The position numbers were made by a program, and so were the translations under genes. Below are positions 1-9,403 of a stretch of 9,403 nt of DNA, piece after piece (position 1 is the stretch's first letter; each line of letters opens with the position of its first letter). The notes beneath the pieces are model-generated. The model made no database searches, had not been told where the DNA came from, and saw nothing but the letters and a program-made list of their open reading frames with translations. Source of the DNA: a virus (Duplodnaviria; Heunggongvirae; Uroviricota; Caudoviricetes); IMG/VR virus record IMGVR_UViG_2531839146_000012; one strand, given 5' to 3'.

Positions 1-395
<395 letters not shown>

Positions 396-404
396 ATCAC
401 CAGT

Positions 405-449
405 AGGCGCATAACACATCCAGCGATCAAAGATGTGTTTATGCGCCTG
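405..449. other. Long inverted repeat / stem-loop between the two convergent small ORFs
   Basis: AGGCGCATAACACATC (405-420) pairs with GATGTGTTTATGCGCCT (433-449) across an 11-12 nt loop. No flanking T-run on either strand, so not a canonical intrinsic terminator. Confidence 0.4.
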
Positions 450-461
450 ATAGTGAAATTA

Positions 462-620
462 TTAAAGTCGTTTAGTTAACATCGCCATTGCTTGAGCAAT
501 AATTGCAACAGCGTCCATCTCTTCACTGGAAGCGATGCAAATGCGGTAACTAATAGCCACAATGAATACATCAATAACGAGAAAGTGAATAGTGTGAAGA
601 TGTTTTGAAAGTAAATGCAT
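462..620 (-). CDS. Small hydrophobic hypothetical protein (52 aa), below the ORF-track cutoff
   Basis: Minus-strand ATG (620-618) with GGAGG 5 nt upstream (complement of CCTCC 626-630); translation MHLLSKHLHTIHFLVIDVFIVAISYRICIASSEEMDAVAIIAQAMAMLTKRL; stop at 464-462. One predicted hydrophobic helix. Confidence 0.3.
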   Translation of the reverse strand: MHLLSKHLHTIHFLVIDVFIVAISYRICIASSEEMDAVAIIAQAMAMLTKRL

Positions 621-713
621 AACTTCCTCCGGTTTTGGGATAGGAGGATTAGAACATGCATTAAATGATGTTGCAAGAATGGCAATTTACCCTAATAGTC
701 TACTATTCACCTC

Positions 714-744
714 AATCTACGTCAACCAATATTTGATGTAGATT
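714..744. promoter_or_regulatory. Near-perfect 12-bp inverted repeat (AATCTACGTCAA-N7-TTGATGTAGATT), operator-like
   Basis: Arms at 714-725 and 733-744 with one mismatch, read directly from the sequence. Confidence 0.3.
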
Positions 745-1014
745 TAATTTTCTTTTAAAAACAATATGTTGTTATTTGTTGAATTTTGGGGTTAGGTTGT
801 TTTTTGAACGTTTTCATCAAGTGTAAAGATACGTTTAGCCTTCATAGTGAGTTCAGTTACTGTCTTTTTCTCTGAAATCGGCGCAAACGTGATCATCGCT
901 TGAGGTTGCTGCTCTTACTTCTCAAATTGTGATGGAGAACGATAAAGGTTAGAGGGCACTTTTATTTTTTTAAGCAAGTGTATAGCATAAGAATAATCTA
1001 AAAAGGGAGGTTAT

Positions 1015-1566
1015 ATGCGCAGGTCTGCATTTGTGAGGATGATGATTTTTACAACGTTGTTTGTAGGGGGAACTTCTACCGCAGTTGCTAAAAACTGCAA
1101 AAAAGGAATACCTTGTGGTAACTCGTGTATAGCTGTTGGTAAGACGTGCCGGATTGGCTCTTATGCCCCTTCATCTTATAAAAATCATTCATACTCTTAT
1201 CCTTCATCCTCTATTCGAAGCTCGCAATCAAATAATTCACGAAAAACTGAAGGAGTGAAAACGACTCCTGCTGCCAAAAATTATCTTTGCCAATACTCTA
1301 TTGCATCAATCGAAAACGGACGTTTAGGGGCATTACGTGTTCAGGGATACGCACAAGTAACTTTATATGCAGATAGCTTCAAGGCTAACAGATTAAATGG
1401 AACATATTTGATATCGCCAAAACTGAATGCTAACGGCAAGTTTATGATGGCAGATGATAAAAGCAAGGTTTATGCTTATGATTCTTGGCTATTAAATTTT
1501 GCAATAAGCGATCGTATCACAAGAACGACAGAACAATGGGATCGATGTAAGCTCAATCAAAAATAA
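1015..1566 (+). CDS. Secreted cysteine-rich hypothetical protein (183 aa) with Sec-type signal peptide
   Basis: GGAGG-containing RBS (1005-1010) before ATG 1015. N-terminus MRRSAFVRMMIFTTLFVGGTSTAVA looks like a signal peptide (basic n-region, hydrophobic core, AVA cleavage motif), followed by a 4-Cys cluster CKKGIPCGNSCIAVGKTC, a Ser/Tyr-rich linker and a C-terminal domain with two more Cys. Confidence 0.75.
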   Translation: MRRSAFVRMMIFTTLFVGGTSTAVAKNCKKGIPCGNSCIAVGKTCRIGSYAPSSYKNHSYSYPSSSIRSSQSNNSRKTEGVKTTPAAKNYLCQYSIASIENGRLGALRVQGYAQVTLYADSFKANRLNGTYLISPKLNANGKFMMADDKSKVYAYDSWLLNFAISDRITRTTEQWDRCKLNQK

Positions 1567-1584
1567 CAGTTAGAGAAGCTCTTG

Positions 1585-1641
1585 TAGAGGCATTATTGAG
1601 TTATTGGTTTTAATATTTTTGTGCCTCTATGGGCTTTTTTT
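1585..1641 (+). terminator. Putative terminator region after the secreted-protein gene
   Basis: TAGAGGCA (1585-1592) pairs with TGCCTCTA (1622-1629), followed by GGGC and a 7-T run (1635-1641). The loop is long, so the structure is non-canonical. Confidence 0.35.
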
Positions 1642-1798
1642 GCCTTTTTGCAAAGTAGGAGAGAGCACAGGAATCGTTAAAATTAATTATTGGGGTATTT
1701 AAGGTTATTTTCAGGTGGTTTAAGGGTATTAAACTTGATTTAATTGATTAAAATATAAACAGATAGTCCTGTATCTTATTGATTTATAAGGTTATTTT

Positions 1799-1855
1799 TA
1801 AATAAAGGTAAATAAAAAATAAATAGCCATAAATAGCTATAAATACATCTAAATA
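1799..1855. repeat. Six TAAATA motifs at 10-11 bp (helical) phasing
   Basis: TAAATA starts at 1799, 1809, 1820, 1830, 1840 and 1850. Confidence 0.6.
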
Positions 1856-2275
1856 CCTTTATCCCTTCCCTTATGGCTAGATTGCGAGAAGTGCTTAACG
1901 CGATTTTCAGCGCCCCCCGATCTGGAAAATCCAGAATCCCCAAATATCAGCAAGGAATTTTCTTGCGTAATCAACATCGTTTTTACCTATTAAATCATCA
2001 CACAGAAAGCCTTTCTGTAATGTCTCTCACTAAACTTTCACTAAACACGAGAATGATCGGTTTTATGTCGGATCAGATGCTAGAAACAGCACCACGTCTC
2101 ACAAGGGCTGTAAGCGATGAAACCAGTGTTTATGCGGGTGCAGGTCAAAATATGGGCCAAAATCCATTTAACATAATAATCGTAATATGCACTAAGGAAC
2201 ACATAGAACGCCTTGAATTGATGTATCAGGGGAAAAGTGATGGATTTTTTACGTAGGAGCACGAGAGGGCTTCTG

Positions 2276-2303
2276 TTGACTTTTGTGTGCTATGAAATAT
2301 AAT
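2276..2303 (+). promoter_or_regulatory. Putative sigma70 promoter firing into the repeat region
   Basis: -35 TTGACT (2276-2281), 16-bp spacer, -10 TATAAT (2298-2303). No ORF follows. Confidence 0.4.
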
Positions 2304-2337
2304 TAAAGGTTTTTTGTTTTTATCGTGTGATGTAGTG

Positions 2338-2780
2338 GATTACACAGGGGGATAGATTAAATGGTGTTCTGTTTATACAGGTTTATTTGTTAGATCAACA
2401 ATTTGGCATTTCTAAACAGATGTTTGAACGTTGCCAAATGTATTGACAACACAAGAAAAGGGCTTGCTATGCCACGCATTACACGGAATAAGGCTGTAAA
2501 AACAAAATAAATTTTAAAATTTGCACAAACGAGAAAACTCGTTCAGAAACAAGCAGAACAATTTTTAGCCAACAATTTCTGATGGTGCTCTGTAAACCGC
2601 ATTACACAAGGCTTTGCGAAAGTGATGTAAAAGTGAAGAAAGCTAACATTGCACTTTGAAGCCATTTTTCATTGGATTTTTTAGTAGGGAATTACACAGG
2701 GAATAGAGAGCATTATTCTATGATTTACACAGGGAATATAGGGGATTATGGCACACACATAGAAAGGCATTACACAGAGT
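2338..2780 (+). repeat. Dispersed direct repeats of G(C/G)ATTACAC(A/G)GG (iteron-like), six copies
   Basis: ATTACAC cores at 2339, 2478, 2601, 2691, 2769 and a TTTACAC variant at 2724, each preceded by G(G/C/A) and followed by (A/G)(G/A)G. Confidence 0.6.
2401..2439. promoter_or_regulatory. Nested imperfect palindrome ATTTGGCA...AAACA-GA-TGTTT...TGCCAAAT, operator-like
   Basis: Outer arms 2401-2408 and 2432-2439 are exact reverse complements; an inner palindrome AAACAGATGTTT lies between them. A TTGACA at 2443-2448 follows. Confidence 0.35.
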
Positions 2781-2808
2781 GAGTGCTATGTGATGATTGG
2801 TAGTAACG

Positions 2809-2843
2809 GTAGGTCACTGTGAGCTACCCCCACAGAATTCTGT
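2809..2843. repeat. Isolated copy of the 22-bp repeat core (GGTAGGTCACTGTGAGCTA) followed by CCCCC and a perfect 12-bp palindrome ACAGAATTCTGT
   Basis: 2809-2827 matches the tandem unit at 3028-3135; the palindrome at 2832-2843 is flanked by TACCCC on both sides. Confidence 0.5.
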
Positions 2844-2883
2844 TACCCCTATCAAGTCTGATACCCGATAAGTATAAATAACA

Positions 2884-2981
2884 CCTAGGAAATGATTTCC
2901 GATCTATTTAGGAAGTAACCTAGGAAGTGGTTTCCTACCTACTTAGGAAATGAGTTCCTACCTACCTAGGAAATGAGTTCC
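2884..2981. repeat. Four CCTAGG-GGAAAT-G-A(T/G)TTCC palindromic sites, the last three at 23-bp pitch
   Basis: GGAAATGATTTCC at 2888-2900 is a perfect odd-length palindrome; GGAAGTGGTTTCC at 2923-2935; GGAAATGAGTTCC at 2946-2958 and 2969-2981. Confidence 0.6.
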
Positions 2982-3006
2982 ACCAATACTATAATTAAAT
3001 AATATA

Positions 3007-3022
3007 AATAATATTCTTTATA
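3007..3022. repeat. Exact 16-bp direct repeat AATAATATTCTTTATA, left copy; right copy at 3184-3199
   Basis: Identical 16-mers at 3007-3022 and 3184-3199 bracket the 22-bp tandem array and its AT-rich flank; both continue with similar (C)TATAT sequence. Confidence 0.55.
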
Positions 3023-3027
3023 CTATA

Positions 3028-3135
3028 TAGCTCACTGTGAACTAGGGGGGGTAGTTCACTATGAGCTAGGGGGTAGGTCATAGTGAGCTAGGGGGTAGGT
3101 CATAGTGAGCTAGGGGGTAGGTCACTGTGAACTAC
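3028..3135. repeat. Five tandem 22-bp repeats (unit about TAGGTCATAGTGAGCTAGGGGG), each with a palindromic TCAC-N-GTGA core
   Basis: Units start near 3028, 3050, 3074, 3096 and 3118 with 22-bp period; the first unit is in inverted orientation (AGCTCACTGTGAACTAG). Followed by an AT-rich stretch with (TA)6 at about 3203-3214. Confidence 0.65.
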
Positions 3136-3324
3136 AATAAGACTATTAATAAAACTATATTAGATTATTAATTAGATCATAATAATAATATTCTTTATAT
3201 CTATATATATATATGATCTTTTGCCTTCCGGCGTTAGCTTCACTCTCTGGCAAGCAGCCTTACTCCGCTACCTTTCGGGCTTCGTGGCTGGCCCGTTCCG
3301 CTCACACCGAAAGCAAAGCGTTAC

Positions 3325-3366
3325 TTTCTTCGTGTAACTATCGTGGCGGTAACGCCCACGAAGAAA
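3325..3366 (+). other. Stable hairpin with GNRA-type tetraloop (GGCG-GTAA-CGCC) nested in a 9-bp outer stem
   Basis: TTTCTTCGTG (3325-3334) pairs with CACGAAGAAA (3357-3366); inner GGCGGTAACGCC at 3345-3356. Sits in a locally GC-richer segment (about 3216-3420). Confidence 0.35.
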
Positions 3367-3600
3367 TACTATTGCGCTGTGCGCAGTAAGAGTAATCACC
3401 TAACCAATCATACTGATTGCTTATGTGTTAACTCTCTCTACTCTTAATTACCCTCCTACATATAATAACTCTGTTATTCTCTGTAGTTGTGTAATTACTC
3501 GAAGAGAGAGCGGCTAAAGCTCAATTACACTCTGCTTTCCTCGTGTAATTTCACTAAGCCTCAATACAATTCCACTTCCTACTTCTGTAGTCGTGTAATT
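3330..3600 (-). repeat. Inverted copies of the ATTACAC motif (CGTGTAAT) plus a 20-bp direct repeat CT(C/T)CTGTAGT(T/C)GTGTAATT
   Basis: GTGTAAT at 3489-3495, 3543-3549 and 3593-3599; GTGTAAC variant at 3333-3339; one direct ATTACAC at 3524-3530. The 20-mers at 3479-3498 and 3582-3600 are near-identical. Confidence 0.5.
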
Positions 3601-3640
3601 GTTTTCGGTGGAAAAGCCAGAGGCGACACCGAAAGAGAAT

Positions 3641-3710
3641 TCTGATCTTATTAATCTTATCTATCTTAGTTAATCTTCTTACTTATCTTACTTTATCTAC
3701 TTTATTATTA
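3641..3710. repeat. Pyrimidine-rich cluster of TTATCT / ATCTT motifs (AGATAA on the minus strand)
   Basis: TTATCT at 3657-3662, 3683-3688 and 3693-3698, plus several ATCT variants. Confidence 0.4.
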
Positions 3711-4220
3711 ATAATAGCTTTATAAGCTCTCTGACGCAAGAAACAGCATTCAGGAAGGGAATCACCTTAGAAAAGGTGTTCTTTGCGTCATAATGTGTTT
3801 TATGAGGGATTCAGAGGTGTTTCATAACAGGAATGTATAGAGGATACTTTAGGTAATTAAAAATAAGGGGTCTAAATGCTTCTCTAACAGCATTAAGCAG
3901 GGTAGGGAATGGAAACGCATTGCCTACACATATAGGCTCACTACAGAGCTTTACAGAGCGTTTTATAAAGTGACTCTCTATCTTATATCTACCATCACCT
4001 TTTCATATACCTAACAAATACAAAATAAGCCCCTTAAATAAGCCTCTGGCGAGCTAAACAGCCATTAGATAAGGGAATGTATTGCTTTTATCAAAATCTC
4101 GTTAGAACGCGTTTTAGAGCGTTTTAGACAATAATGAAGAATAGCACTACACAGAAGAGCACGAATAGCTAAGAAAAAATGTAAGTACATGAAAAAGATC
4201 AGATTTTTTGTGAAAAGGTA

Positions 4221-4249
4221 TTGACAAATGTTTCTTTATATGTAATAAT
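4221..4249 (+). promoter_or_regulatory. Putative sigma70 promoter of the early operon
   Basis: -35 TTGACA (4221-4226), 17-bp spacer, extended -10 TGtAATAAT (4241-4249). It lies about 110 nt upstream of the first gene. Confidence 0.5.
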
Positions 4250-4359
4250 AGGTATTAGAGGGACAGAAAAACATTCTTCTCTAAATAATCAAAATCAATG
4301 CACTTTGAAGCCGTCAGGCTTGCAAGGTGTTTTTCTTTTAACTGAATAAGGAGTTTTTT

Positions 4360-4548
4360 ATGAAATGGTTTACCCCGGAGCACGTCATCTCGGCATTTAA
4401 AAAAGGTGAGCTTACACGCCATCAAGTAGTAATGAATCGTAATATGGCAAGGAGTCGAGGTTATCCAGAGCGAGCAGCTTGCTTCAATGAAGCACTCAAG
4501 ATTATTGATGAATTAAGAAAAAATGAAAAAGAATCTGAAACAGAGTAA
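4360..4548 (+). CDS. Small hypothetical protein (62 aa), first gene of the early operon
   Basis: AAGGAG RBS at 4348-4353, 6-nt spacer, ATG 4360. No family recognised. Confidence 0.6.
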   Translation: MKWFTPEHVISAFKKGELTRHQVVMNRNMARSRGYPERAACFNEALKIIDELRKNEKESETE

Positions 4549-4567
4549 AGAATAGAAGGAGAAAACT

Positions 4568-4735
4568 ATGAGCGAAACCAAGAAACCAATTCCGCGCACT
4601 TACCTACACGTTGACCCTGAAATCTTCAAGGTTTTATTTGCTGAAGCCAAGAAAAGGCAAATTATGGTCAGTGATTTGATGTTAGAAATCATTACTGAAG
4701 CAGCAGAGAACATCAAACAAAAAAAGGGTAAGTGA
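4568..4735 (+). CDS. Ribbon-helix-helix (CopG/Arc/MetJ-like) DNA-binding protein, 55 aa; below the ORF-track cutoff
   Basis: AAGGAG at 4555-4560, ATG 4568, stop TGA 4733-4735. Translation MSETKKPIPRTYLHVDPEIFKVLFAEAKKRQIMVSDLMLEIITEAAENIKQKKGK fits a beta-strand / helix / helix layout typical of RHH proteins. Confidence 0.55.
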   Translation: MSETKKPIPRTYLHVDPEIFKVLFAEAKKRQIMVSDLMLEIITEAAENIKQKKGK

Positions 4736-4786
4736 TCCTCATTCACTTTAGTAGCGCATTAAGCGTGATTTATAAGGAGATTTTTA

Positions 4787-5479
4787 ATGATTAATCAACT
4801 AACTTTTACAAAACACTATGACACGTTTGATAATGTATCAAAGATTTATTCTGATAAATTCCCTCAAGGAAAAGATTTAGATCTATTACATATTGTGCTT
4901 TATTTTCGATTCCTTAGTTATCAGGAAAACAACCTTAATTGTTATGAAAGTCACGAAACATTAGCTAAGATTTTTAAGTCTTCAGCGTCAACAATTAAAC
5001 GTAAGATAAACGATCTTAAAGAGATGGGATTATTAGAAACATCCCCACATCCTGATCCGTATATTTCATCTTTGATTTACAATGCTCTCCCTCTCACAGA
5101 TGCACATATTACTCCCCCAGGAGAATCATCACTCTCTGATCTTTCTGAGGCAGAAGAAGCACAGGAACAACCTAAAGGCCATAAACAGCCTTCTTTTGAT
5201 GTTCTTGATGATGATTGGGATGCGCCTTTACCGTGGGAGACGGAAGAAACACCTGTTTCATCAAGTGAAAAGGTAGCTAATGATAATGAGGAGGATGTGT
5301 TAGAGAATTTTGCCTCTCTTATCATCCGGGAGAAACACAGAAGAACAGGAGGATCATCATTTATAGACTTTGCAAATTCACTGGCTTATAGACACGGGCT
5401 AAAACGACCAAATGGTATTGAGGCATATTTTGCTAAGAAACATCCCAAAGTATATGAAGACTTTGATATTCCATTTTAA
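4787..5479 (+). CDS. Winged-HTH protein (HTH_36 / replisome-organizer-like N-domain), acidic linker, C-terminus ending EDFDIPF
   Basis: AAGGAG at 4774-4779, ATG 4787. The N-terminal ...CYESHETLAKIFKSSASTIKRKINDLKEMGLLE matches the usual winged-HTH pattern of phage/plasmid replication organizers. An acidic low-complexity linker (DDDWDAPLPWETEE...) follows; the last residues are YEDFDIPF, stop 5477-5479. Confidence 0.8.
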   Translation: MINQLTFTKHYDTFDNVSKIYSDKFPQGKDLDLLHIVLYFRFLSYQENNLNCYESHETLAKIFKSSASTIKRKINDLKEMGLLETSPHPDPYISSLIYNALPLTDAHITPPGESSLSDLSEAEEAQEQPKGHKQPSFDVLDDDWDAPLPWETEETPVSSSEKVANDNEEDVLENFASLIIREKHRRTGGSSFIDFANSLAYRHGLKRPNGIEAYFAKKHPKVYEDFDIPF

Positions 5480-5490
5480 TAAGGAGGGTT

Positions 5491-5769
5491 ATGATTCAAT
5501 ATTTAGTAAAAAATCAAGTAGACAGAATTCAGTGTAATGACACAGGAAAACGCATCTATGAAACACTTGCTTACCTCTATAAAGGAAAGCCAACACCGCT
5601 AAAATATAGCGATGTGTTACATCGAGCAGGGTGCTCTGAAGATGGTTTAAAATTCTGGCTGAAACAGCTATCAAATTTCGGTGTTATTGAGATTAAAGAA
5701 TTATCTTTCTCTACATTCAATCTCAAAAGACTAAATAGAGAAATAGACTTCATCTATTCCACTCTCTAA
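5491..5769 (+). CDS. Small hypothetical protein (92 aa), possible winged-HTH
   Basis: AAGGAGGG RBS at 5481-5488, ATG 5491; tightly packed after the previous gene. Confidence 0.7.
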   Translation: MIQYLVKNQVDRIQCNDTGKRIYETLAYLYKGKPTPLKYSDVLHRAGCSEDGLKFWLKQLSNFGVIEIKELSFSTFNLKRLNREIDFIYSTL

Positions 5770-5898
5770 AATCTCTCTATGTAATTAAAATATAAAAGGA
5801 AAACATTATTATGATAGTAGCTATGTATTGGTTATTGTTCTTTCTCACGTTAGAAACATATTTCGGGGTGTTTTCCTTTAAAAGAAAAGGAAAAGTAA

Positions 5899-6309
5899 AT
5901 GGCAAAAAGAAAAAACAACGTTGTTAAGAAGATCGGTGATTCAGCTTCTCTTCTAAGTAAACCTAAATCTATTCTAAGACGTAAAGACTTTAAAGAGCTA
6001 GTTACGCTCTCCAAGCAAAATAGCGCCCCTGGCGAATGGAAAACAGAGATCATAGAACATTCTCCCTCTGTGCCTTGTGGAGATGAATTTAACGCCTTAC
6101 AAGAAATCTTATCTTCAACACCTGGCGTATTCTGGAAACCTAGAAAAAGAAAAGAGTATATTGTTGATAGCTCTGATTTACGCAAATACCAGATTTTAGG
6201 ATTTGAAGACTACAACCACTACGTCGGTTATCTCGCCACAAATGGCCTAAATAATTTAGTTCCTGAATTCCAAATTTTAGATAATGCAGATCACTATGGA
6301 GACTTTTAA
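5899..6309 (+). CDS. Hypothetical protein (136 aa) with Lys/Arg-rich N-terminus, ending ...HYGDF
   Basis: Purine-rich RBS (AAAGGAAAAG) before ATG 5899. N-terminus MAKRKNNVVKKIGDSASLLSKPKSILRRKDFKEL. Confidence 0.65.
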   Translation: MAKRKNNVVKKIGDSASLLSKPKSILRRKDFKELVTLSKQNSAPGEWKTEIIEHSPSVPCGDEFNALQEILSSTPGVFWKPRKRKEYIVDSSDLRKYQILGFEDYNHYVGYLATNGLNNLVPEFQILDNADHYGDF

Positions 6310-6310
6310 T

Positions 6311-6649
6311 ATGAACAAAAACACGTATGACACAATTTACTCACTAATTAATTATTATGAGGATGATTACCTCCTGCCTTTAAACCGCGCTGAACTTGAA
6401 GCATACAAAGAAAACACGCCAGCGGCACTAAATGAGGCGTTTAAACACTGGGATTTAGCTGTGAATGCCTTTGAGCACCTCTCTAAGCGTGTAGAGATGC
6501 TCTGTAAGCGTGAGAACGCATATCTAACAGCGGATCAGCTATTTGAGCTATCAAACTGGATAGAAGGTATTGAATCGGACGTTCGCTATGTGGGAGATGG
6601 CCTTGTCGAACTAGCTCAACGCTTAGGCGCTACTATCACAGAAGAATAA
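6311..6649 (+). CDS. Acidic hypothetical protein (112 aa)
   Basis: GGAG at 6298-6301 then ATG 6311. The track start at 6284 would overlap the upstream gene and lacks an RBS. About 21 Asp/Glu versus 10 Lys/Arg by count. Confidence 0.7.
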   Translation: MNKNTYDTIYSLINYYEDDYLLPLNRAELEAYKENTPAALNEAFKHWDLAVNAFEHLSKRVEMLCKRENAYLTADQLFELSNWIEGIESDVRYVGDGLVELAQRLGATITEE

Positions 6650-6678
6650 AAAAAGCAACAAAAAAGTTGTAAAATATC

Positions 6679-6707
6679 TTGACATTTCATATATTGTATG
6701 TTAATAT
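6679..6707 (+). promoter_or_regulatory. Strong sigma70-like promoter ahead of the late genes
   Basis: -35 TTGACA (6679-6684), 17-bp spacer, -10 TAATAT (6702-6707). Confidence 0.6.
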
Positions 6708-6714
6708 AATTATA

Positions 6715-6932
6715 TAGGGTGATTATTTTTCCTTTATTGGTTCGATATTAAAAATTCTTCTTGTCGTTAAAGGGGAGTAAAATCTCCGCTCCCCGCTTCT
6801 CCTCCTTAAGTAATACTGTGTCATTATTACCTCTTTCCTTTGTTATGCATACATCTTGGAGTGTGCATAACATAGGGTAATTACATAGGTACAAGTTAAT
6901 AAAAGGCGGCTTTAAATGCTGCCTTTTATTTT
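6715..6932 (+). ncRNA. Candidate roughly 220-nt leader / small RNA from the promoter to the intrinsic terminator; no ORF
   Basis: Promoter at 6679-6707 and terminator at 6901-6932 with no ORF over 11 codons between them. Alternative hairpins GGGGAG...CTCC...CTCCCC (6772-6794) and a 9-bp stem TGTTATGCA / TGCATAACA (6841-6849 / 6865-6873). Confidence 0.35.
6901..6932 (+). terminator. Rho-independent terminator
   Basis: Stem AAGGCGGC (6903-6910) / GCTGCCTT (6918-6925, one G-U pair), loop TTTAAAT, then TTATTTT. Confidence 0.6.
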
Positions 6933-6994
6933 GCCCGTTATGCAACTTAAAAGTTGTATTTCTTACTTTAAACAAGGTAACAAGGTTTATATAA

Positions 6995-7207
6995 ATGTTG
7001 TTCTTAAATGATAAAGAGCAAATCATCAAGTATCGCGATGAAATGCTAAAGATCAATCCACAAATTACCGAAATGGTAGCTAAATACGCTGGGTGTTCTG
7101 TCGAGGAAGTAGAAAGATGTGTTGAAAAATATTTTTCTCCTTCTTCTCCGTCTACACCTTCCCTTAATGAATTAATCAAATTAAAAGCTAAGGAGATTAC
7201 TAAATGA
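6995..7207 (+). CDS. Small hypothetical protein (70 aa), first late gene
   Basis: ATG 6995 with a weak AAGG RBS; its stop overlaps the next start (ATGA at 7204-7207), suggesting translational coupling. Confidence 0.5.
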   Translation: MLFLNDKEQIIKYRDEMLKINPQITEMVAKYAGCSVEEVERCVEKYFSPSSPSTPSLNELIKLKAKEITK

Positions 7208-7566
7208 TTATTGATTTAGACACTCTGTTTCCAGTTCGAAAGACTTTCACAGATATTGTAAGTTATTGTACTGATCCGTTTGCCTCTGTAGAAAGCAAGG
7301 TTTTTGCTTCTCTTCCTGCTGATGTTGAGTGCGGAGACTTGATCACCAGCACTGGCGCTAAATATGAATCAGGAGATGATATCTATGTTGTTATGAGTGA
7401 ATTTGTAACGGCTGGAGCAAACAAGCCTGTAGATGTGCTACGTAGCAATGCTGGGCTTGTATGCATCAAAGCTGATGCCCTGAATGCTGTAAGTGAAGCA
7501 GCAAAAGCAGCATTAATTAAAAAAGGCTTTCAGCTTGAAGGGTTCCATTCTGTTTTCACTTCTTAA
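7204..7566 (+). CDS. Hypothetical protein (120 aa) immediately upstream of the capsid homolog; possible head accessory (decoration or scaffold-like), unproven
   Basis: AAGGAG at 7191-7196, ATG 7204. The accessory-protein role is suggested by position only. Confidence 0.7.
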   Translation: MIIDLDTLFPVRKTFTDIVSYCTDPFASVESKVFASLPADVECGDLITSTGAKYESGDDIYVVMSEFVTAGANKPVDVLRSNAGLVCIKADALNAVSEAAKAALIKKGFQLEGFHSVFTS

Positions 7567-7584
7567 TAAAAGGAATAATAATAA

Positions 7585-8613
7585 ATGATTCTAGGTAATG
7601 ATTACGTTGATTTAGCTCCTCTGTTCTCTGCGCATAGCACTAGAAATTATCTGCTTTCTACTCTTGATTTTACGGATTCTGTAGGGGTTACATCTCATAA
7701 AGTGGCTGTTAGCCAACTGGTGGAAACTAACGAATCTCTGTTCAACAAAGAAACCTCTCGTTTCTCTTCTGAACATAACGTGACTAAGCGTGAACAAGGT
7801 AAAGAATATCTGATTGAAATCCCGTACTTTTTAAGGGAAGACCTGATCAAACCGCAGGACGTGCAAGGCAAACGTAAACCTGGCACTGATTTTCAGGAAA
7901 CACTCACTGATATTTATGCTGACTATGTTGCTAAACACAATGTTGCATTCCAGCGTACAAAAGAGAGCGTGTTGGCGGCTTCTTTGTTCTCTGGCAAAAC
8001 TTACACGCCTAAAACTGATGATGTTCTTATCGAATGGGGCAAGCTGTTTAACGTATCAGCTATGAAAGCCACTGTGAACGCTTCCAGCACTGACACCACG
8101 AAGATTTTTAAAGAATTTGATCAGATTGCTACTGACATTATCGAGAAAGCACAAAGCCAGGCGGCTGCTGTAGAGCGTATTGTTGTTTTCTGTAAGCCGG
8201 AAGCCTTCTCTGCAATTCGATTCTCTGCTGGTATGGCAAACGCATTCCAGTATGTAAGCCCACTGGAAGAGGGGAACGTTGTGTATCAGCGTCGTGACCT
8301 GCTGCCAGGGGTGACAGCGTTCACTATTCCAGGAACTAACATTGATGTTATTAAACTGGTAGATCCGCTACACCTGGCACATATGACCGCAGACGCTGTA
8401 GCGATTCCGAAGTTTGCTAAAGGCTCTAACGTATATCAGAACATCTACGGGGCTGCTTCCAGCACTTTTGAACTGATTAATGCCGATCCTACTGAGGTCT
8501 ATAGCTACAGCTATGAATCTTCTCGTGGTGATGCTGTGAACGTTGTTACAGAGAATAGCCAGATGGTTGTTAACCACGGTGTAGGCTTCTCCGTTCAAAT
8601 CACTGTTAAATAA
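7585..8613 (+). CDS. Putative phage major capsid protein, T7 gp10-like (342 aa)
   Basis: AAAAGGA RBS, ATG 7585. By eye, the segment AVERIVVFCKPEAFSAIRFSAGMANAFQYVSPLEEGNV aligns with T7 gp10 ...ADRVFYCDPDSYSAILAALMPNAANYAALIDPEKGSI (shared R, C-x-P, SAI, M-x-NA-x-x-Y, P-x-E-x-G) at a similar position in a protein of near-identical length (342 vs 345 aa; T7 sequence from memory). Followed by a strong terminator. Confidence 0.6.
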   Translation: MILGNDYVDLAPLFSAHSTRNYLLSTLDFTDSVGVTSHKVAVSQLVETNESLFNKETSRFSSEHNVTKREQGKEYLIEIPYFLREDLIKPQDVQGKRKPGTDFQETLTDIYADYVAKHNVAFQRTKESVLAASLFSGKTYTPKTDDVLIEWGKLFNVSAMKATVNASSTDTTKIFKEFDQIATDIIEKAQSQAAAVERIVVFCKPEAFSAIRFSAGMANAFQYVSPLEEGNVVYQRRDLLPGVTAFTIPGTNIDVIKLVDPLHLAHMTADAVAIPKFAKGSNVYQNIYGAASSTFELINADPTEVYSYSYESSRGDAVNVVTENSQMVVNHGVGFSVQITVK

Positions 8614-8630
8614 TATTTAACGTGTAATAG

Positions 8631-8664
8631 AGGCGTGGCGTGTATTCACGCTTCGCCTTTTTTT
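8631..8664 (+). terminator. Rho-independent terminator after the capsid-like gene
   Basis: AGGCG-TG-GCGTG / loop TATT / CACGC-TT-CGCCT, followed by a 7-T run (8658-8664). Confidence 0.7.
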
Positions 8665-8698
8665 ATTTATTTTTTAAATTTTGAGAGGTGATTAAAAT

Positions 8699-8902
8699 AT
8701 GGAAGTGATTCTGAAATCAAAAAATGGTGTACACGTACATTTAGATGCTAATGATTCTAGAGGATTGTTAAATCTGAAATATCTATGTTCTCTCCTAGAT
8801 GTTCCATATGAAGGAGTAAAAGCCCGTATGTTCAGACTAAACGAGAGTATTGATCAAGCTCTACACCATTTCTTAAGCAAAGAAGGTGATAAAAATGATT
8901 AA
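8699..8902 (+). CDS. Small hypothetical protein (67 aa)
   Basis: AGAGG RBS, ATG 8699, stop 8900-8902. Confidence 0.5.
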   Translation: MEVILKSKNGVHVHLDANDSRGLLNLKYLCSLLDVPYEGVKARMFRLNESIDQALHHFLSKEGDKND

Positions 8903-8916
8903 TAAGGGGATTTTAA

Positions 8917-9183
8917 ATGTTAGAAATTAACACTTCTAAAATTAAGAACACAGTTACATTTAGTGTAGATAAAGACAGCTTGAAAAAAGCGAAAGACTCT
9001 ATTACAGGCTTAAAGGAATTCGCAGAAAACATCAAGCCAGCTAAATTAAGGTTTGATAATGTCACTAAAGGCTATAAGAAAGCACAAAGTGAAGTAGATA
9101 AGATTACTAAAAAGCAAGCCCAGGCTGATAAAGCTAATGCTAAAGCACAATTAGCCGCTCAACGTGTAGTTGCAAGAGGGTAA
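8917..9183 (+). pseudogene. Lys/Ala/Gln-rich (coiled-coil-like) protein gene truncated by the IS1 insertion
   Basis: AAGGGGA RBS, ATG 8917. The frame runs into the IS1 terminal inverted repeat starting at 9179, and the stop TAA (9181-9183) is supplied by the IS1 end GGTAATGAC. Translation ends ...AQLAAQRVVARG. Confidence 0.5.
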
Positions 9184-9403
9184 TGACTCCAACTTATTGA
9201 TAGTGTTTTATGTTCAGATAATGCCCGATGACTTTGTCATGCAGCTCCACCGATTTTGAGAACGACAGCGACTTCCGTCCCAGCCGTGCCAGGTGCTGCC
9301 TCAGATTCAGGTTATGCCGCTCAATTCGCTGCGTATATCGCTTGCTGATTACGTGCAGCTTTCCCTTCAGGCGGGATTCATACAGCGGCCAGCCATCCGT
9401 CAT
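9179..9403 (-). mobile_element. IS1 right end (partial; continues beyond the window)
   Basis: 9179 onward reads GGTAATGACTCCAACTTATTGATAGTGTTTTATGTTCAG..., the reverse complement of the canonical IS1 right terminus including the GGTAATGACTCCAACTTATTGAT inverted repeat. Confidence 0.9.
9194..9403 (-). CDS. insB: IS1 transposase InsB, C-terminal fragment
   Basis: Track [72 protein letters not shown] is the recognisable C-terminus of IS1 InsB; stop at 9196-9194. Confidence 0.9.

What the first reader, a model, noticed from the sequence alone, without database searches (positions are those of the whole stretch)
6995..9183. Late operon has a capsid gene but no visible portal, terminase, protease or tail genes
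The capsid homolog is accompanied only by small proteins of 70, 120, 67 and at least 88 aa. The short gene upstream of the capsid could be a decoration- or scaffold-like accessory. This minimal make-up fits either a decayed prophage stump or a capsid-forming satellite or phage-plasmid that borrows the rest from a helper. The neighbouring repeat hub and small regulators are compatible with the satellite idea but do not prove it.
Basis: inference. Interest (0 to 1): 0.6.

Follow-up and report, generated by a model that had tools for sequence, protein, structure and literature searches.

The report
Probable satellite of phi92-like phages
The capsid gene cluster belongs to an IS-truncated copy of a widespread 13-14 kb island of enteric bacteria that looks like an undescribed parasite ("satellite") of large virulent phi92-type phages, because it carries its own capsid and two tail-core genes plus a copy of the phage's chromosome-end sequence.

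Summary
The ORFs are real. The 342-aa protein is a genuine major capsid protein. "No tail genes" is only partly right. The 88-aa ORF is the first ~87 codons of a tape-measure gene cut by IS1. Intact copies continue with a 610-aa tape measure, a 227-aa tube-initiator (Dit-like) protein and an integrase.

Intact copies are 13.1-13.9 kb islands with perfect or near-perfect att repeats at three different tRNA genes in E. coli, Klebsiella and Buttiauxella. None has a portal, terminase, protease, sheath or tube gene. All core genes are under purifying selection (median dN/dS 0.05-0.19). It is therefore not a decayed conventional prophage.

Three lines tie the island to virulent ~150-kb Stephanstirmvirinae myoviruses (phi92, phAPEC8 group):
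- The best solved-structure matches of its capsid, tape measure and tube initiator are phi92 gp124, gp134 and gp135.
- A non-coding motif at window 1876-1949 matches the boundary of the phage's 343-bp direct terminal repeat. 26 nt are identical to the last 26 nt of the phi92 chromosome.
- About 240 nt are 99.6% identical to phage muut.

Best reading: a new satellite family, and this copy is disabled by IS100 and IS1. Mobilisation is inferred, not shown. Nine literature searches found no description.

The parts
1..215 (.). Right-end fragment of IS100 (IS21 family, istB end). It replaces the attL-proximal ~600 bp of the element.
   Evidence: 99% matches to IS100 istB on many plasmids. Homology to intact element copies starts at 215/216.
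243..395 (+). Conserved 50-aa ORF at the left end of the element. Function unknown.
   Evidence: Annotated in intact copies and 96-100% identical there. No Pfam or PHROG hit.
1015..1566 (+). 183-aa protein with an apparent N-terminal signal-peptide-like hydrophobic segment (judged by eye). Variable cargo gene.
   Evidence: ORF. The C-terminal half matches PHROGs 2578 and 14768 of unknown function (E 1e-17). The gene is absent or replaced in many copies.
1876..1949 (-). Sequence shared with the right boundary of the direct terminal repeat (DTR) of phi92-like phages. It is a candidate packaging or cleavage signal. The boundary equivalent lies at 1895|1896, inside GTGCT|TAACG.
   Evidence: 46 nt are 93.5% identical to more than 50 Stephanstirmvirinae genomes (BLAST E 2e-8 against 2.3 Gb). 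The match is phi92 positions 318-363, which straddle the annotated end of the 343-bp DTR. Window 1896-1921 is 100% identical to the last 26 nt of the phi92 chromosome. Box A (GTGCTTAACG) and box B (AAATATC) lie exactly 51 nt apart in 7 phage sequences and in elements of 4 genera.
2391..2446 (-). Second segment shared with the inside of the phage DTR (about DTR positions 130-185).
   Evidence: 77-80% identity over 44-49 nt to the Klebsiella phage phi1_175008 end region and to two phi92-like IMG/VR contigs. The order and orientation relative to the first segment are the same.
2808..3135 (+). Iteron arrays: 3-4 copies of a 23-nt unit at 2883-2986, 5 copies of a 22-nt unit at 3026-3135, one more copy at 2808, and an AT-rich stretch at 2985-3014. 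Probable replication origin.
   Evidence: Five or more 22-nt iterons occur only in copies that carry the window-type Rep protein: 5 of 8 such copies against 0 of 9 with other Rep types.
4360..4548 (+). 62-aa ORF, first gene of the rightward gene block.
   Evidence: Conserved in E. coli, Klebsiella, Kluyvera and Citrobacter copies (31-89% identity). No family hit.
4568..4735 (+). 55-aa ORF, possibly a ribbon-helix-helix regulator (inferred from the sequence pattern only). It is nearly identical to a gene of the phages muut and inny.
   Evidence: Window 4556-4797 is 99.6% identical to phage muut, and 4556-4785 is 97.8% identical to phage inny. 53 of 55 residues are identical to inny_185.
4787..5479 (+). 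230-aa HTH protein resembling a replication initiator.
   Evidence: Pfam HTH_36 (E 2.9e-5, 24.2 bits, just below the 25-bit gathering cut-off). PHROGs 270, 428 and 391 (replication initiation, E 2e-9 to 1e-4). 32% identical to phage inny_184. The module is swapped between copies.
5491..6649 (+). Three small ORFs of unknown function: 92 aa (5491-5769), 136 aa (5899-6309) and 121 aa (6284-6649). The 136-aa gene belongs to the conserved core.
   Evidence: The 136-aa gene is found in E. coli, Klebsiella, Buttiauxella, Kluyvera, Scandinavium, Citrobacter and Serratia copies, with median dN/dS 0.16. No Pfam, PHROG or PADLOC hit.
6679..6930 (+). Sigma-70-like promoter (6679-6707: TTGACA, 17 nt, TG, TAATAT) followed by a leader with a strong terminator-like hairpin (6898-6930), upstream of the capsid genes.
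   Evidence: The promoter scan gives 10 of 12 matches, although the total number of sites is no higher than in shuffles. The hairpin folds at -18.7 kcal/mol, z -3.8. Any regulatory role is inference.
6995..7207 (+). 70-aa ORF, overlapping the next gene by 4 nt (ATGA). Function unknown.
   Evidence: 40-46% identical in four other genera, with median dN/dS 0.13. No family hit.
7204..7566 (+). 120-aa protein, probably a divergent head-decoration protein.
   Evidence: It always lies directly upstream of the capsid gene, is 60-69% identical across genera, and has median dN/dS 0.11. Remote homologues P0166 and P0169 (profile E 7e-6 and 1e-5) match PHROG 2680 'head decoration' (E 7e-4 and 2e-5). That is the family of the phage gene in the same position. 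Weak fold and PDB hints point to decoration proteins. Direct hhalign comparisons were negative.
7585..8613 (+). Major capsid protein, 342 aa, intact.
   Evidence: PF03864 (E 7e-15) and PHROG 29. The best solved structure is phi92 gp124 (E 7e-20). Homologues of 342-348 aa and 37-98% identity occur across Enterobacterales. Median dN/dS is 0.11.
8630..8664 (+). Intrinsic-terminator-like hairpin with a T-run after the capsid gene.
   Evidence: -21.2 kcal/mol, z -6.3.
8699..8902 (+). 67-aa ORF that always precedes the tape-measure gene. Function unknown.
   Evidence: 40-54% identical in five other genera, with median dN/dS 0.05. No similarity to the phage gene in the same position.
8917..9177 (+). 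First ~87 codons of the tape-measure gene, truncated by IS1. The ORF reads on to a stop at 9181-9183 inside IS1.
   Evidence: It aligns to the start of the 610-aa protein of intact copies. That protein matches PHROG 16051 (E 4e-52) and phi92 gp134 (E 8e-39).
9178..9403 (-). End of an IS1 element (InsB C-terminus). It replaces the rest of the tape measure, the tube-initiator gene, the integrase and attR.
   Evidence: 99.6% identical to K-12 IS1B and IS1C.

Best explanation
Region 6995-9183 is the head module (70-aa gene, decoration-like 120-aa gene, major capsid gene, terminator) plus the start of the tail-core module (67-aa gene and a truncated tape measure). Both belong to a 13-14 kb tRNA-integrating mobile element found across Enterobacterales.

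The family is most likely a phage satellite that exploits virulent ~150-kb Stephanstirmvirinae myoviruses (the phi92/phAPEC8 group).

Proposed mechanism (inferred):
- On helper infection the element excises with its own integrase.
- It replicates from its iteron origin using its Rep-like protein.
- It expresses its own capsid and decoration proteins, building a shell sized for about 13-14 kb.
- It relies on the helper's portal, scaffold or protease, terminase, sheath, tube and baseplate.
- It is recognised by the helper terminase through a copy of the sequence at the helper's DTR boundary.
- Its own tape measure and tube initiator are built into the tail core.

Shown here: the anatomy, the conservation, the homologies and the shared DNA. 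Inferred: induction, packaging, small capsids and transfer.

The copy in this window is disabled. IS100 removed attL. IS1 removed most of the tape measure, the tube initiator, the integrase and attR.
For: 1. Intact copies are discrete elements. In E. coli strain 1500 the element spans 13,130 bp between 28-nt repeats (25 of 28 identical) at thrW. In Klebsiella it spans 13.9 kb with a perfect 24-nt repeat at tRNA-Gly. In Buttiauxella it spans 13.8 kb with a perfect 44-nt repeat at tRNA-Leu. The integrase and Rep/iteron modules are swapped between copies while the size stays constant.

2. The core order is kept from E. coli to Serratia, where capsid identity falls to 37%: ~120 aa, capsid, a small ORF (~62-67 aa), then a ~610-630-aa tape measure (sequence similarity to the 67-aa gene is detectable in five genera, not in Serratia). 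No portal, terminase, protease, sheath or tube gene appears in any copy.

3. Selection is purifying. Median dN/dS is 0.11 for the capsid, 0.11 for the 120-aa gene, 0.13 for the 70-aa gene, 0.05 for the 67-aa gene, 0.19 for the tape measure and 0.16 for the 136-aa gene. The capsid ORF is intact in all 22 loci compared.

4. The structural genes point to one helper group. Among PDB sequences the best matches are phi92 gp124 for the capsid (E 7e-20), gp134 for the tape measure (E 8e-39) and gp135 for the tube initiator (E 4e-70). The tube initiator is 48-56% identical, and the tape measure 34-37% identical, to ~147-150 kb E. coli Stephanstirmvirinae phages.

5. The element shares the phage's terminal sequence. 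Window 1876-1921 matches more than 50 phages of that subfamily at the DTR boundary. 26 nt equal the phi92 chromosome end. The 51-nt box spacing is kept in phages and in elements of four genera. The Klebsiella element is closest to a Klebsiella phage: 27 of 41 inter-box positions against 15-18 for the other phages, where shuffles give a mean of 12. A DTR of 342-343 bp is annotated for phi92 and was determined with PhageTerm for phage BME3 (PMC12210895).

6. There has been recent DNA exchange. 242 nt are 99.6% identical to phage muut and 230 nt are 97.8% identical to phage inny.

7. A size of 13-14 kb is in the range of known small-capsid satellites such as P4 and SaPIs (established knowledge).
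Against: There is no experimental evidence of induction, packaging or transfer.

No circular or terminally defined copy was found among 29 metagenome matches. Contig ends coincided with the tRNA and att repeats.

Only the right DTR boundary and one internal DTR segment are present. No match to the left DTR boundary was found.

The shared motif can also be read as a short ORF or a regulatory site. The 51-nt spacing equals 17 codons, an ATG lies 6 codons upstream in several sequences, and some substitutions are synonymous. However, phi92, Tr1 and the Klebsiella element lack an in-frame ATG, and the frame ends at very different places.

The motif was not detected in the Serratia, Kluyvera or Scandinavium copies.

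The capsid is only 23-25% identical to known phage capsids, so co-assembly with a helper portal is uncertain.

Why a satellite would carry its own tape measure and tube initiator is unexplained.
Confidence: 0.62

Rival explanations
1. It is a non-transmissible anti-phage island. The capsid, decoration, tape-measure and tube-initiator homologues act as poison or decoy subunits that derail assembly of invading phi92-like phages. The DTR-like motif diverts the phage terminase or serves as a phage-responsive regulatory site. The element spreads only by ordinary horizontal transfer.
For: The same phage links apply as for the satellite reading. The structural set is odd and incomplete: capsid, tape measure and tube initiator, but nothing to join them. 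No packaged or circular form was seen. Interference with helper assembly is a known activity of satellites and defence systems, for example tail-assembly interference (PMC11364771, listed).
Against: No protein of the window matches a PADLOC defence model, apart from weak generic HTH matches. The element has its own integrase, att sites and replication module. Its size is tightly kept at 13.1-13.9 kb despite module swapping, which is what a packaging limit would produce. A full-length capsid under strong purifying selection, paired with a decoration-like partner, suggests that a shell is built rather than only poisoned. Defence and satellite roles are not mutually exclusive.
Confidence: 0.17
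2. It is a decayed remnant of a conventional temperate prophage. Only a few morphogenesis genes survive.
For: The copy in the window is indeed truncated by two IS elements and lacks att sites and an integrase. The gene order (decoration, capsid..., tape measure, tube initiator) mirrors a phage morphogenesis module with the middle section missing.
Against: The same reduced gene set recurs in intact, att-bounded elements at three different tRNA genes in different genera. All core genes have dN/dS of 0.05-0.19 and intact reading frames. The nearest phage relatives belong to a subfamily described as lytic, and no temperate member is known to me (PMC12210895 and my own knowledge). Nothing beyond the att site is shared with the K-12 CP4-6 prophage at the same locus.
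Confidence: 0.05
3. It is a phage-plasmid or plasmid-borne element that replicates as an episome and forms particles with a helper.
For: The element has a Rep-like gene and iterons. A divergent, IS-disrupted copy sits on an IncF plasmid of an avian pathogenic E. coli. The window itself is bounded by IS100 and IS1, which are common on such plasmids.
Against: All intact copies examined are chromosomal and integrated at tRNA genes with an integrase. No partition genes belong to the element. The plasmid copy is a fragment between IS elements, not the plasmid's replicon.
Confidence: 0.03
4. It is a domesticated capsid, such as an encapsulin-like compartment or a gene-transfer-agent-like device serving the host.
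For: A capsid gene without packaging genes is conserved under purifying selection in bacterial chromosomes.
Against: The element is sporadic: 119 of 5,426 complete E. coli genomes hold a copy covering at least 80% of the window. It is mobile, with att sites and swapped integrases. It is linked to tail-core genes and to phage terminal sequences. No cargo-loading or enzyme partner is present.
Confidence: 0.03

Closest known systems
Capsid-forming PICIs (cf-PICIs, e.g. EcCIEDL933; bioRxiv 10.1101/2022.09.08.507074)
   Same: Both are integrative islands of Enterobacteria of roughly similar size, with an integrase and a replication module. Both encode their own major capsid protein, so the shell would be made of satellite protein rather than helper protein.
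   Different: cf-PICIs encode a complete head and packaging set (HK97-type capsid, prohead protease, portal, head-tail connectors, small terminase) and steal only tails from temperate helpers. This element has none of portal, protease, connector or terminase. It carries a tape measure and a tube initiator instead. Its capsid is of the lambda-E/phi92 gp124 type, and its phage links are to virulent 150-kb myoviruses.
P4-like satellites (helper P2)
   Same: Both are tRNA-integrated elements of 11-14 kb. P4 carries the helper's packaging site (P2 cos). Here there is a copy of the helper's DTR-boundary sequence.
   Different: No sid, psu, delta or alpha primase homologues appear among the Pfam and PHROG results. 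P4 remodels the helper's capsid protein instead of encoding one. The helper is temperate and uses cos packaging.
PLE of Vibrio cholerae (helper ICP1)
   Same: PLE is a chromosomal island parasitising a virulent myovirus, with own replication initiator and origin. The helper capsids are distantly related (the ICP1 capsid groups with this capsid supergroup according to PMC12846349).
   Different: PLE uses ICP1 coat protein remodelled by its scaffold TcaP (bioRxiv 10.1101/2023.03.01.530633). It has a serine recombinase and unrelated genes, and is restricted to Vibrio.
SaPIbov5 Ccm / SaPI capsid-size redirection
   Same: A satellite-encoded capsid-protein homologue takes part in building small capsids (my own knowledge).
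   Different: Ccm co-assembles with the helper capsid protein, and the SaPI has TerS or uses the helper's cos. There are no tail genes, and the host and helper are Gram-positive.
Morphogenesis module of phi92/phAPEC8-like phages (Stephanstirmvirinae)
   Same: The order is decoration, capsid..., small gene, tape measure, tube initiator. The matching phi92 proteins are gp124 (capsid), gp134 (tape measure) and gp135 (tube initiator). The DTR-boundary sequence is shared.
   Different: The element lacks the ~5 kb between capsid and tape measure (head completion, sheath, tube, chaperones) and everything else in the phage. It adds an integrase, att sites and an iteron origin. Sequence identity is low for the capsid (23%), moderate for the tape measure (34-37%) and higher for the tube initiator (48-56%).

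Membership tests
Phage satellite (functional class) | A mobile element that lacks a complete set of virion and packaging genes | tested here: met
   No portal, terminase, protease, sheath or tube gene in the window or in intact copies from E. coli, Klebsiella, Serratia and metagenomes.
Phage satellite (functional class) | Own integration and replication functions in a discrete element | tested here: met
   Integrase plus att repeats at three tRNA genes. Rep-like protein plus iterons. The copy in the window has lost the integrase and att sites.
Phage satellite (functional class) | Carries the helper's packaging signal or a device that redirects the terminase | tested here: inconclusive
   A sequence straddling the DTR boundary of phi92-like phages is present. 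Its function as a packaging site is unproven, and an ORF or regulatory reading is not excluded.
Phage satellite (functional class) | Induced, packaged and transferred by a helper phage | not testable with these tools
   This needs infection experiments. No packaged or circular form was seen in metagenome contigs.
cf-PICI | Encodes its own major capsid protein | tested here: met
   PF03864, E 7e-15.
cf-PICI | Encodes portal, prohead protease and head-tail connector or adaptor proteins | tested here: not met
   No such Pfam or PHROG hits in any ORF of the window or of intact copies.
cf-PICI | Encodes a small terminase | tested here: not met
   No terminase hit.
P4-like satellite | sid, psu and delta genes plus an alpha primase-helicase | tested here: not met
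   None appears among the Pfam and PHROG results for all ORFs. The replication protein is a 230-aa HTH initiator-like protein.
PLE | Vibrio island with a large serine recombinase, a RepA_N initiator and the TcaP scaffold, activated by ICP1 | tested here: not met
   The element has a tyrosine integrase (PF00589), an enterobacterial host, its own capsid gene, and no homologous genes detected.
Conventional (or decaying) temperate prophage | Terminase, portal and a full tail module, or their pseudogenised remains with relaxed selection | tested here: not met
   These genes are absent from att-bounded intact copies. dN/dS is 0.05-0.19 and ORFs are intact in 19-22 loci per gene.
Phage-plasmid | Extrachromosomal replicon with partition functions and a complete phage gene set | tested here: not met
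   Intact copies are chromosomal at tRNA genes. The only plasmid copy is an IS-bounded fragment.

The most novel reading that the evidence does not exclude
This is a previously undescribed family of phage satellites in Enterobacterales that parasitises large virulent DTR-packaging myoviruses (phi92/phAPEC8 group).

It would build its own decorated small capsid. Uniquely among known satellites, it would also supply its own tape measure and tail-tube initiator. It would take portal, terminase, sheath, tube and baseplate from the helper. It would be packaged through a mimic of the helper's terminal-repeat boundary.
Probability: 0.45. Interest if true: 0.85.

Novelty: new variant of a known kind. 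Interest (0 to 1): 0.75.

Why it matters
E. coli has no known satellite of a virulent phage. The well-studied case, PLE with ICP1, is confined to Vibrio cholerae.

If this family is a satellite of phi92/phAPEC8-like phages, several things follow:
- It would give a tractable E. coli and Klebsiella model for parasitism of lytic phages.
- It would be the first satellite known to bring its own tape measure and tube initiator, so head genes and tail-core genes could be hijacked in a mix-and-match way.
- It would show how a DTR-type terminase can be subverted.

There is also a practical side. Stephanstirmvirinae phages are used in therapy cocktails and in collections. About 2% of complete E. coli genomes carry an intact-length copy, and those strains may resist or exploit such phages. 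The element would also be a route of gene transfer driven by lytic phages.

Tried and rejected
- **Megablast of the finding region** against phages found nothing. Against plasmids it found only a 100-nt piece. The element is chromosomal and matches no known phage.
- **K-12 CP4-6 prophage** at the same thrW site shares only the att region. It was rejected as a relative.
- **BLASTP** of the 120-aa and 67-aa proteins against the phage genes in the same positions found no alignment. hhalign of the 120-aa family against the phage decoration protein gave 1.4-1.5% probability.
- **AlphaFold2 model** of the 120-aa protein had low confidence (pLDDT 54). The Foldseek hits to decoration proteins (E 0.03-0.09) are therefore only hints.
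- **PADLOC** found no defence system. **Rfam** at gathering thresholds found nothing. No tRNA lies in the window.
- **Left DTR boundary of phi92:** no match in the element. A 22-nt match to a phi92 sequence about 900 nt upstream of the right DTR (window 3855-3876) was left uninterpreted.
- **Excised or packaged forms:** of the 29 metagenome stretches carrying the motif, the 12 held as complete contigs were tested and none has a terminal overlap. The 12.5-14.6 kb contigs end at the tRNA and att repeats, which looks like assembly breaks.
- **IMG/VR copies** come from isolate genomes and are not evidence of particles.
- **Coding reading of the shared motif** was examined and neither proven nor excluded.
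- **Source of the window:** no complete E. coli genome holds the IS100-element-IS1 arrangement, so its own flanks could not be inspected.
- **Literature:** nine full-text searches found no paper describing this element. The library omits most subscription journals, so prior description cannot be excluded.

Full report
**1. The observation**

The five ORFs are present as described: 70 aa (6995-7207), 120 aa (7204-7566), 342 aa (7585-8613), 67 aa (8699-8902) and 88 aa (8917-9183), all on the + strand. The 342-aa protein matches Pfam Phage_cap_E over its full length (E 7e-15) and PHROG 29, major head protein.

The window is E. coli DNA bounded by insertion sequences. Positions 1-215 are the istB end of IS100, and positions 9178-9403 are the end of IS1. 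Nothing in the window resembles a portal, terminase, protease, sheath or tube protein.

One part of the observation needs correction. The "at least 88 aa" ORF is the start of a tail gene cut by IS1.

**2. What intact copies look like**

Megablast against 5,426 complete E. coli genomes finds 119 genomes that hold at least 80% of the window at 92-96% identity, among the copies listed. No copy has the same IS junctions, so the window's own flanks could not be examined.

In strain 1500 (L001) the element lies between tRNA-Thr (thrW) and the yagP'/paoD side. It is bounded by 28-nt direct repeats (25 of 28 identical) that lie 13,130 bp apart. Its gene order is:
- small ORFs and a variable 183-aa protein with an apparent signal peptide;
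- about 2.6 kb without annotated genes;
- ORFs of 62 and 56 aa, then an HTH replication-initiator-like protein;
- ORFs of 92, 136 and 112 aa;
- the 70-aa gene, the 120-aa gene and the capsid gene;
- the 67-aa gene;
- a 610-aa protein (PHROG 16051 'tail length tape measure protein', E 4e-52);
- a 227-aa protein (Pfam Dit_like PF21821, E 1.5e-29);
- a tyrosine integrase on the opposite strand.

A second intact copy, in strain STEFF_1, has the same content. The window aligns to L001 positions 15001-23684. It has therefore lost about 600 bp including attL on the left. On the right it has lost about 520 codons of the tape measure, the Dit-like gene, the integrase and attR.

The element shares only the att site with the K-12 CP4-6 prophage that occupies the same locus.

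**3. A family across Enterobacterales, under selection**

Capsid homologues of 342-348 aa occur in several groups:

| Host | Identity to the window's capsid |
|---|---|
| E. coli | 74-98% |
| Citrobacter, Enterobacter, Cronobacter, Klebsiella aerogenes, Kluyvera, Buttiauxella, Scandinavium | 62-65% |
| K. pneumoniae | 55% |
| Sodalis | 42% |
| Serratia | 37-40% |

In all loci examined the order is kept: ~120 aa, capsid, a small ORF (~62-67 aa), then a ~610-630-aa tape measure. The 136-aa gene lies upstream and an integrase lies at the far end. The replication gene, the integrase and the left-hand cargo differ between copies. The Dit-like gene is present only in E. coli and Buttiauxella.

The Klebsiella element is bounded by a perfect 24-nt repeat at tRNA-Gly and spans 13.9 kb. 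The Buttiauxella element is bounded by a perfect 44-nt repeat at tRNA-Leu and spans 13.8 kb.

Pairwise dN/dS (Nei-Gojobori, pairs with dS between 0.05 and 1.5) has these medians:

| Gene | Median dN/dS |
|---|---|
| capsid | 0.11 |
| 120-aa gene | 0.11 |
| 70-aa gene | 0.13 |
| 67-aa gene | 0.05 |
| tape measure | 0.19 |
| 136-aa gene | 0.16 |

The reading frames are intact in 19-22 loci per gene. This rules out a decaying stump as the nature of the family. A size kept at 13-14 kb despite module swapping is what a packaging limit would give (inference).

**4. Link to one phage group**

By tblastn against 50,697 phage genomes:
- The tape measure matches E. coli and Klebsiella phages of ~145-151 kb, of the genera Phapecoctavirus and Justusliebigvirus in the subfamily Stephanstirmvirinae, at 30-37% identity.
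- The Dit-like protein matches the same phages at 48-56% identity. It matches rV5-like phages at only ~29%.
- The capsid is distant, at 23-25% identity. Its matches are phiWec188 and Pseudomonas Otagovirus/Pakpunavirus-type phages, which belong to the same capsid supergroup (PMC12846349).

Against all PDB sequences the best matches are phi92 virion proteins:
- gp124 for the capsid profile (E 7e-20);
- gp134 for the tape measure (E 8e-39);
- gp135 for the Dit-like protein (E 4e-70). The next matches for this protein are annotated 'tube initiator protein'.

In phage phiWec188 the order is head decoration (PHROG 2680), capsid, about 5 kb of other genes, an 82-aa gene, the tape measure, then the Dit-like gene. 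The element looks like this module with the middle removed.

These phages are described as lytic and have direct terminal repeats (PMC12210895; PMC12695924).

**5. Shared DNA**

A sensitive blastn of window 216-8200 against phages gave two unexpected results.

(a) *A motif at the phage's terminal repeat.* Window 1876-1921 matches more than 50 Stephanstirmvirinae genomes at 93.5% identity over 46 nt (E 2e-8).
- In phi92 the match is at positions 318-363. It straddles the end of the annotated 343-bp left terminal repeat.
- I verified that the two phi92 repeats are identical.
- Window 1896-1921 equals the last 26 nt of the phi92 chromosome.
- BME3, a relative, has a 342-bp repeat determined with PhageTerm.
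- The motif is bipartite. GTGCTTAACG, which contains the boundary, and AAATATC lie exactly 51 nt apart. This holds in seven phage sequences and in elements from E. coli, Klebsiella, Buttiauxella, Citrobacter and a metagenome, although the sequence between the boxes diverges.
- The Klebsiella element is closest to a Klebsiella phage: 27 of 41 inter-box positions, against 15-18 for the other phages. Shuffles give a mean of 12 and a maximum of 22.
- The E. coli element does not discriminate between phages.
- A second segment, window 2391-2446, matches the inside of the phage repeat in the same order and orientation.

(b) *Near-identical DNA.* Window 4556-4797 is 99.6% identical to phage muut, and 4556-4785 is 97.8% identical to phage inny.
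- This stretch covers the 55-aa ORF, of which 53 of 55 residues equal inny_185.
- The next phage gene, inny_184, is a 32%-identical homologue of the element's Rep-like protein.
- Such recent exchange requires the element and these phages to meet in the same cells.

*Caveats on the motif.*
- It can be read as a short ORF. The spacing equals 17 codons, an ATG lies 6 codons upstream in several sequences, and some changes are synonymous.
- Against that, phi92, Tr1 and the Klebsiella element lack an in-frame ATG, and the open frame ends anywhere from 25 to 137 codons.
- It could also be a regulatory site.
- No counterpart of the left repeat boundary was found.
- The motif was not detected in the Serratia, Kluyvera and Scandinavium copies.

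**6. Other anatomy**

The "non-coding" stretch holds iteron arrays: 3-4 copies of a 23-nt unit at 2883-2986, 5 copies of a 22-nt unit at 3026-3135, one more at 2808, and an AT-rich tract. Strain 1500 has different repeats and a different Rep N-terminus. Arrays of five or more 22-nt iterons occur only in copies with the window-type Rep: 5 of 8 such copies, against 0 of 9 with other types. This fits an iteron origin with a matching initiator.

Upstream of the 70-aa gene there is a good sigma-70-like promoter (6679-6707) and then a strong hairpin (6898-6930). After the capsid gene there is a terminator-like hairpin (8630-8664). The head genes may therefore form their own unit behind a leader terminator. 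That regulation is inference only.

**7. The small genes next to the capsid**

The 120-aa protein is restricted to these elements. It is as conserved as the capsid. Its AlphaFold2 model is poor (pLDDT 54).

A profile search of 1.84 billion proteins found full-length remote relatives of 111-117 aa (E 7e-6 to 3e-5).
- Two of them match PHROG 2680 'head decoration' (E 7e-4 and 2e-5). That is the family of the phage gene in the same position.
- One of them again sits directly upstream of a Phage_cap_E gene in a different chromosomal island.

Weak Foldseek and PDB hits also point to decoration proteins. Direct profile comparison with the phage protein was negative. I call this protein a probable divergent decoration protein. 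The 70-aa and 67-aa proteins have no detectable relatives outside the family.

**8. Interpretation**

The best explanation is a satellite of phi92/phAPEC8-like virulent myoviruses. It has its own integrase, origin and initiator. It has its own capsid and decoration proteins for a shell matched to 13-14 kb. It has its own tape measure and tube initiator. It depends on the helper for portal, scaffold or protease, terminase, sheath, tube and baseplate. It carries a mimic of the helper's terminal-repeat boundary for recognition by the terminase. I put this at about 0.6.

That the window holds an IS-truncated copy of a conserved, selected, mobile element family is near certain.

The main rival, at about 0.17, is a non-transmissible defence island that uses decoy structural subunits and a terminase trap. 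It shares most of the evidence and is not exclusive of the satellite reading. A decayed conventional prophage, a phage-plasmid and a domesticated capsid are each unlikely, for the reasons given under the rival explanations.

**9. Comparison with known systems**

It works most like a cf-PICI in having its own capsid, like P4 in carrying the helper's packaging site, and like PLE in having a virulent helper. It fails the defining gene sets of all three:
- no portal, protease, connectors or TerS (cf-PICI);
- no sid, psu, delta or alpha (P4);
- no PLE genes.

To my knowledge, a satellite-encoded tape measure and tube initiator have not been reported. Nine full-text searches found no description of this element. 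The library is incomplete, so the novelty claim is provisional.

**10. Verdict**

The finding is interesting (0.75) as a probable new variant of the phage-satellite kind with a named, testable helper group.

Noticed in passing
window 1876-1949 and 2391-2446: Two non-coding segments are homologous to the direct-terminal-repeat region of phi92-like phages. The first straddles the repeat boundary. They lie outside the coordinates of the finding but became central to the interpretation.
   Followed up: yes
window 4556-4797 (and 5083-5125): DNA is 97.8-99.6% identical to the virulent phages muut and inny. It covers a 55-aa ORF that looks like a ribbon-helix-helix protein, and a 43-nt piece of the Rep-like gene. 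The direction of transfer is unknown. Only 3 phage records carry it.
   Followed up: partly
window 2808-3135: Iteron arrays with 23-nt and 22-nt units and an AT-rich tract. The repeat type differs between element copies, and arrays of five or more 22-nt units occur only in copies with the window-type Rep protein.
   Followed up: partly
window 1015-1566: A 183-aa Cys-rich protein with an apparent signal peptide. Its C-terminal half matches two PHROG families of unknown function (E 1e-17). It is absent from many copies, and a plasmid copy has a 183-aa recombinase on the other strand in its place. Probably a cargo slot.
   Followed up: partly
window 6679-6930: A near-consensus promoter is followed about 190 nt later by a strong hairpin, just before the head genes. 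This resembles a leader terminator that could be read through by an antiterminator. Not tested.
   Followed up: no
L020 (plasmid NZ_CP126938.1, 33323-50475): An IncF plasmid of an avian pathogenic E. coli carries a divergent, IS3-disrupted copy of the same element type next to sopAB. It has ORFs of 65, 127, 343 and 65 aa in the usual order, although tblastn did not detect similarity to the strain-1500 capsid, and a tape measure truncated at 163 aa.
   Followed up: partly
L058 and L059 (Logan contigs, gene at 8001-8342): A different chromosomal island near trpE pairs a 113-aa decoration-like gene with a 338-aa Phage_cap_E capsid. On the opposite strand it has a 720-aa TMP_3 protein and a Phage_phiTE_211 protein. 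It suggests further capsid-plus-tape-measure islands related to phiTE/rV5-like myoviruses.
   Followed up: no
L017 2968-3585, L019 3138-3689, L033 264-845, L035 3816-4394: Element copies outside E. coli carry a second, short (183-205 aa) tyrosine-recombinase gene at the left end, in addition to the full-length integrase at the right end. Its role (invertase, resolvase-like or remnant) is unknown.
   Followed up: no
L028 about 2575-2610 (phi92 positions about 255-290), also L030, L053, L054: In the phages, the motif's box B is followed by GAGAATAATTATCATTTGCATTATCATTC. This resembles a Fur-box-like repeat of ATCATT units (my own reading). It is absent from the elements.
   Followed up: no
window 3855-3876: A 22-nt match (95%) to phi92 positions 147334-147355, about 900 nt upstream of the right terminal repeat (local E 2e-4 to 4e-4). 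It may be chance.
   Followed up: no
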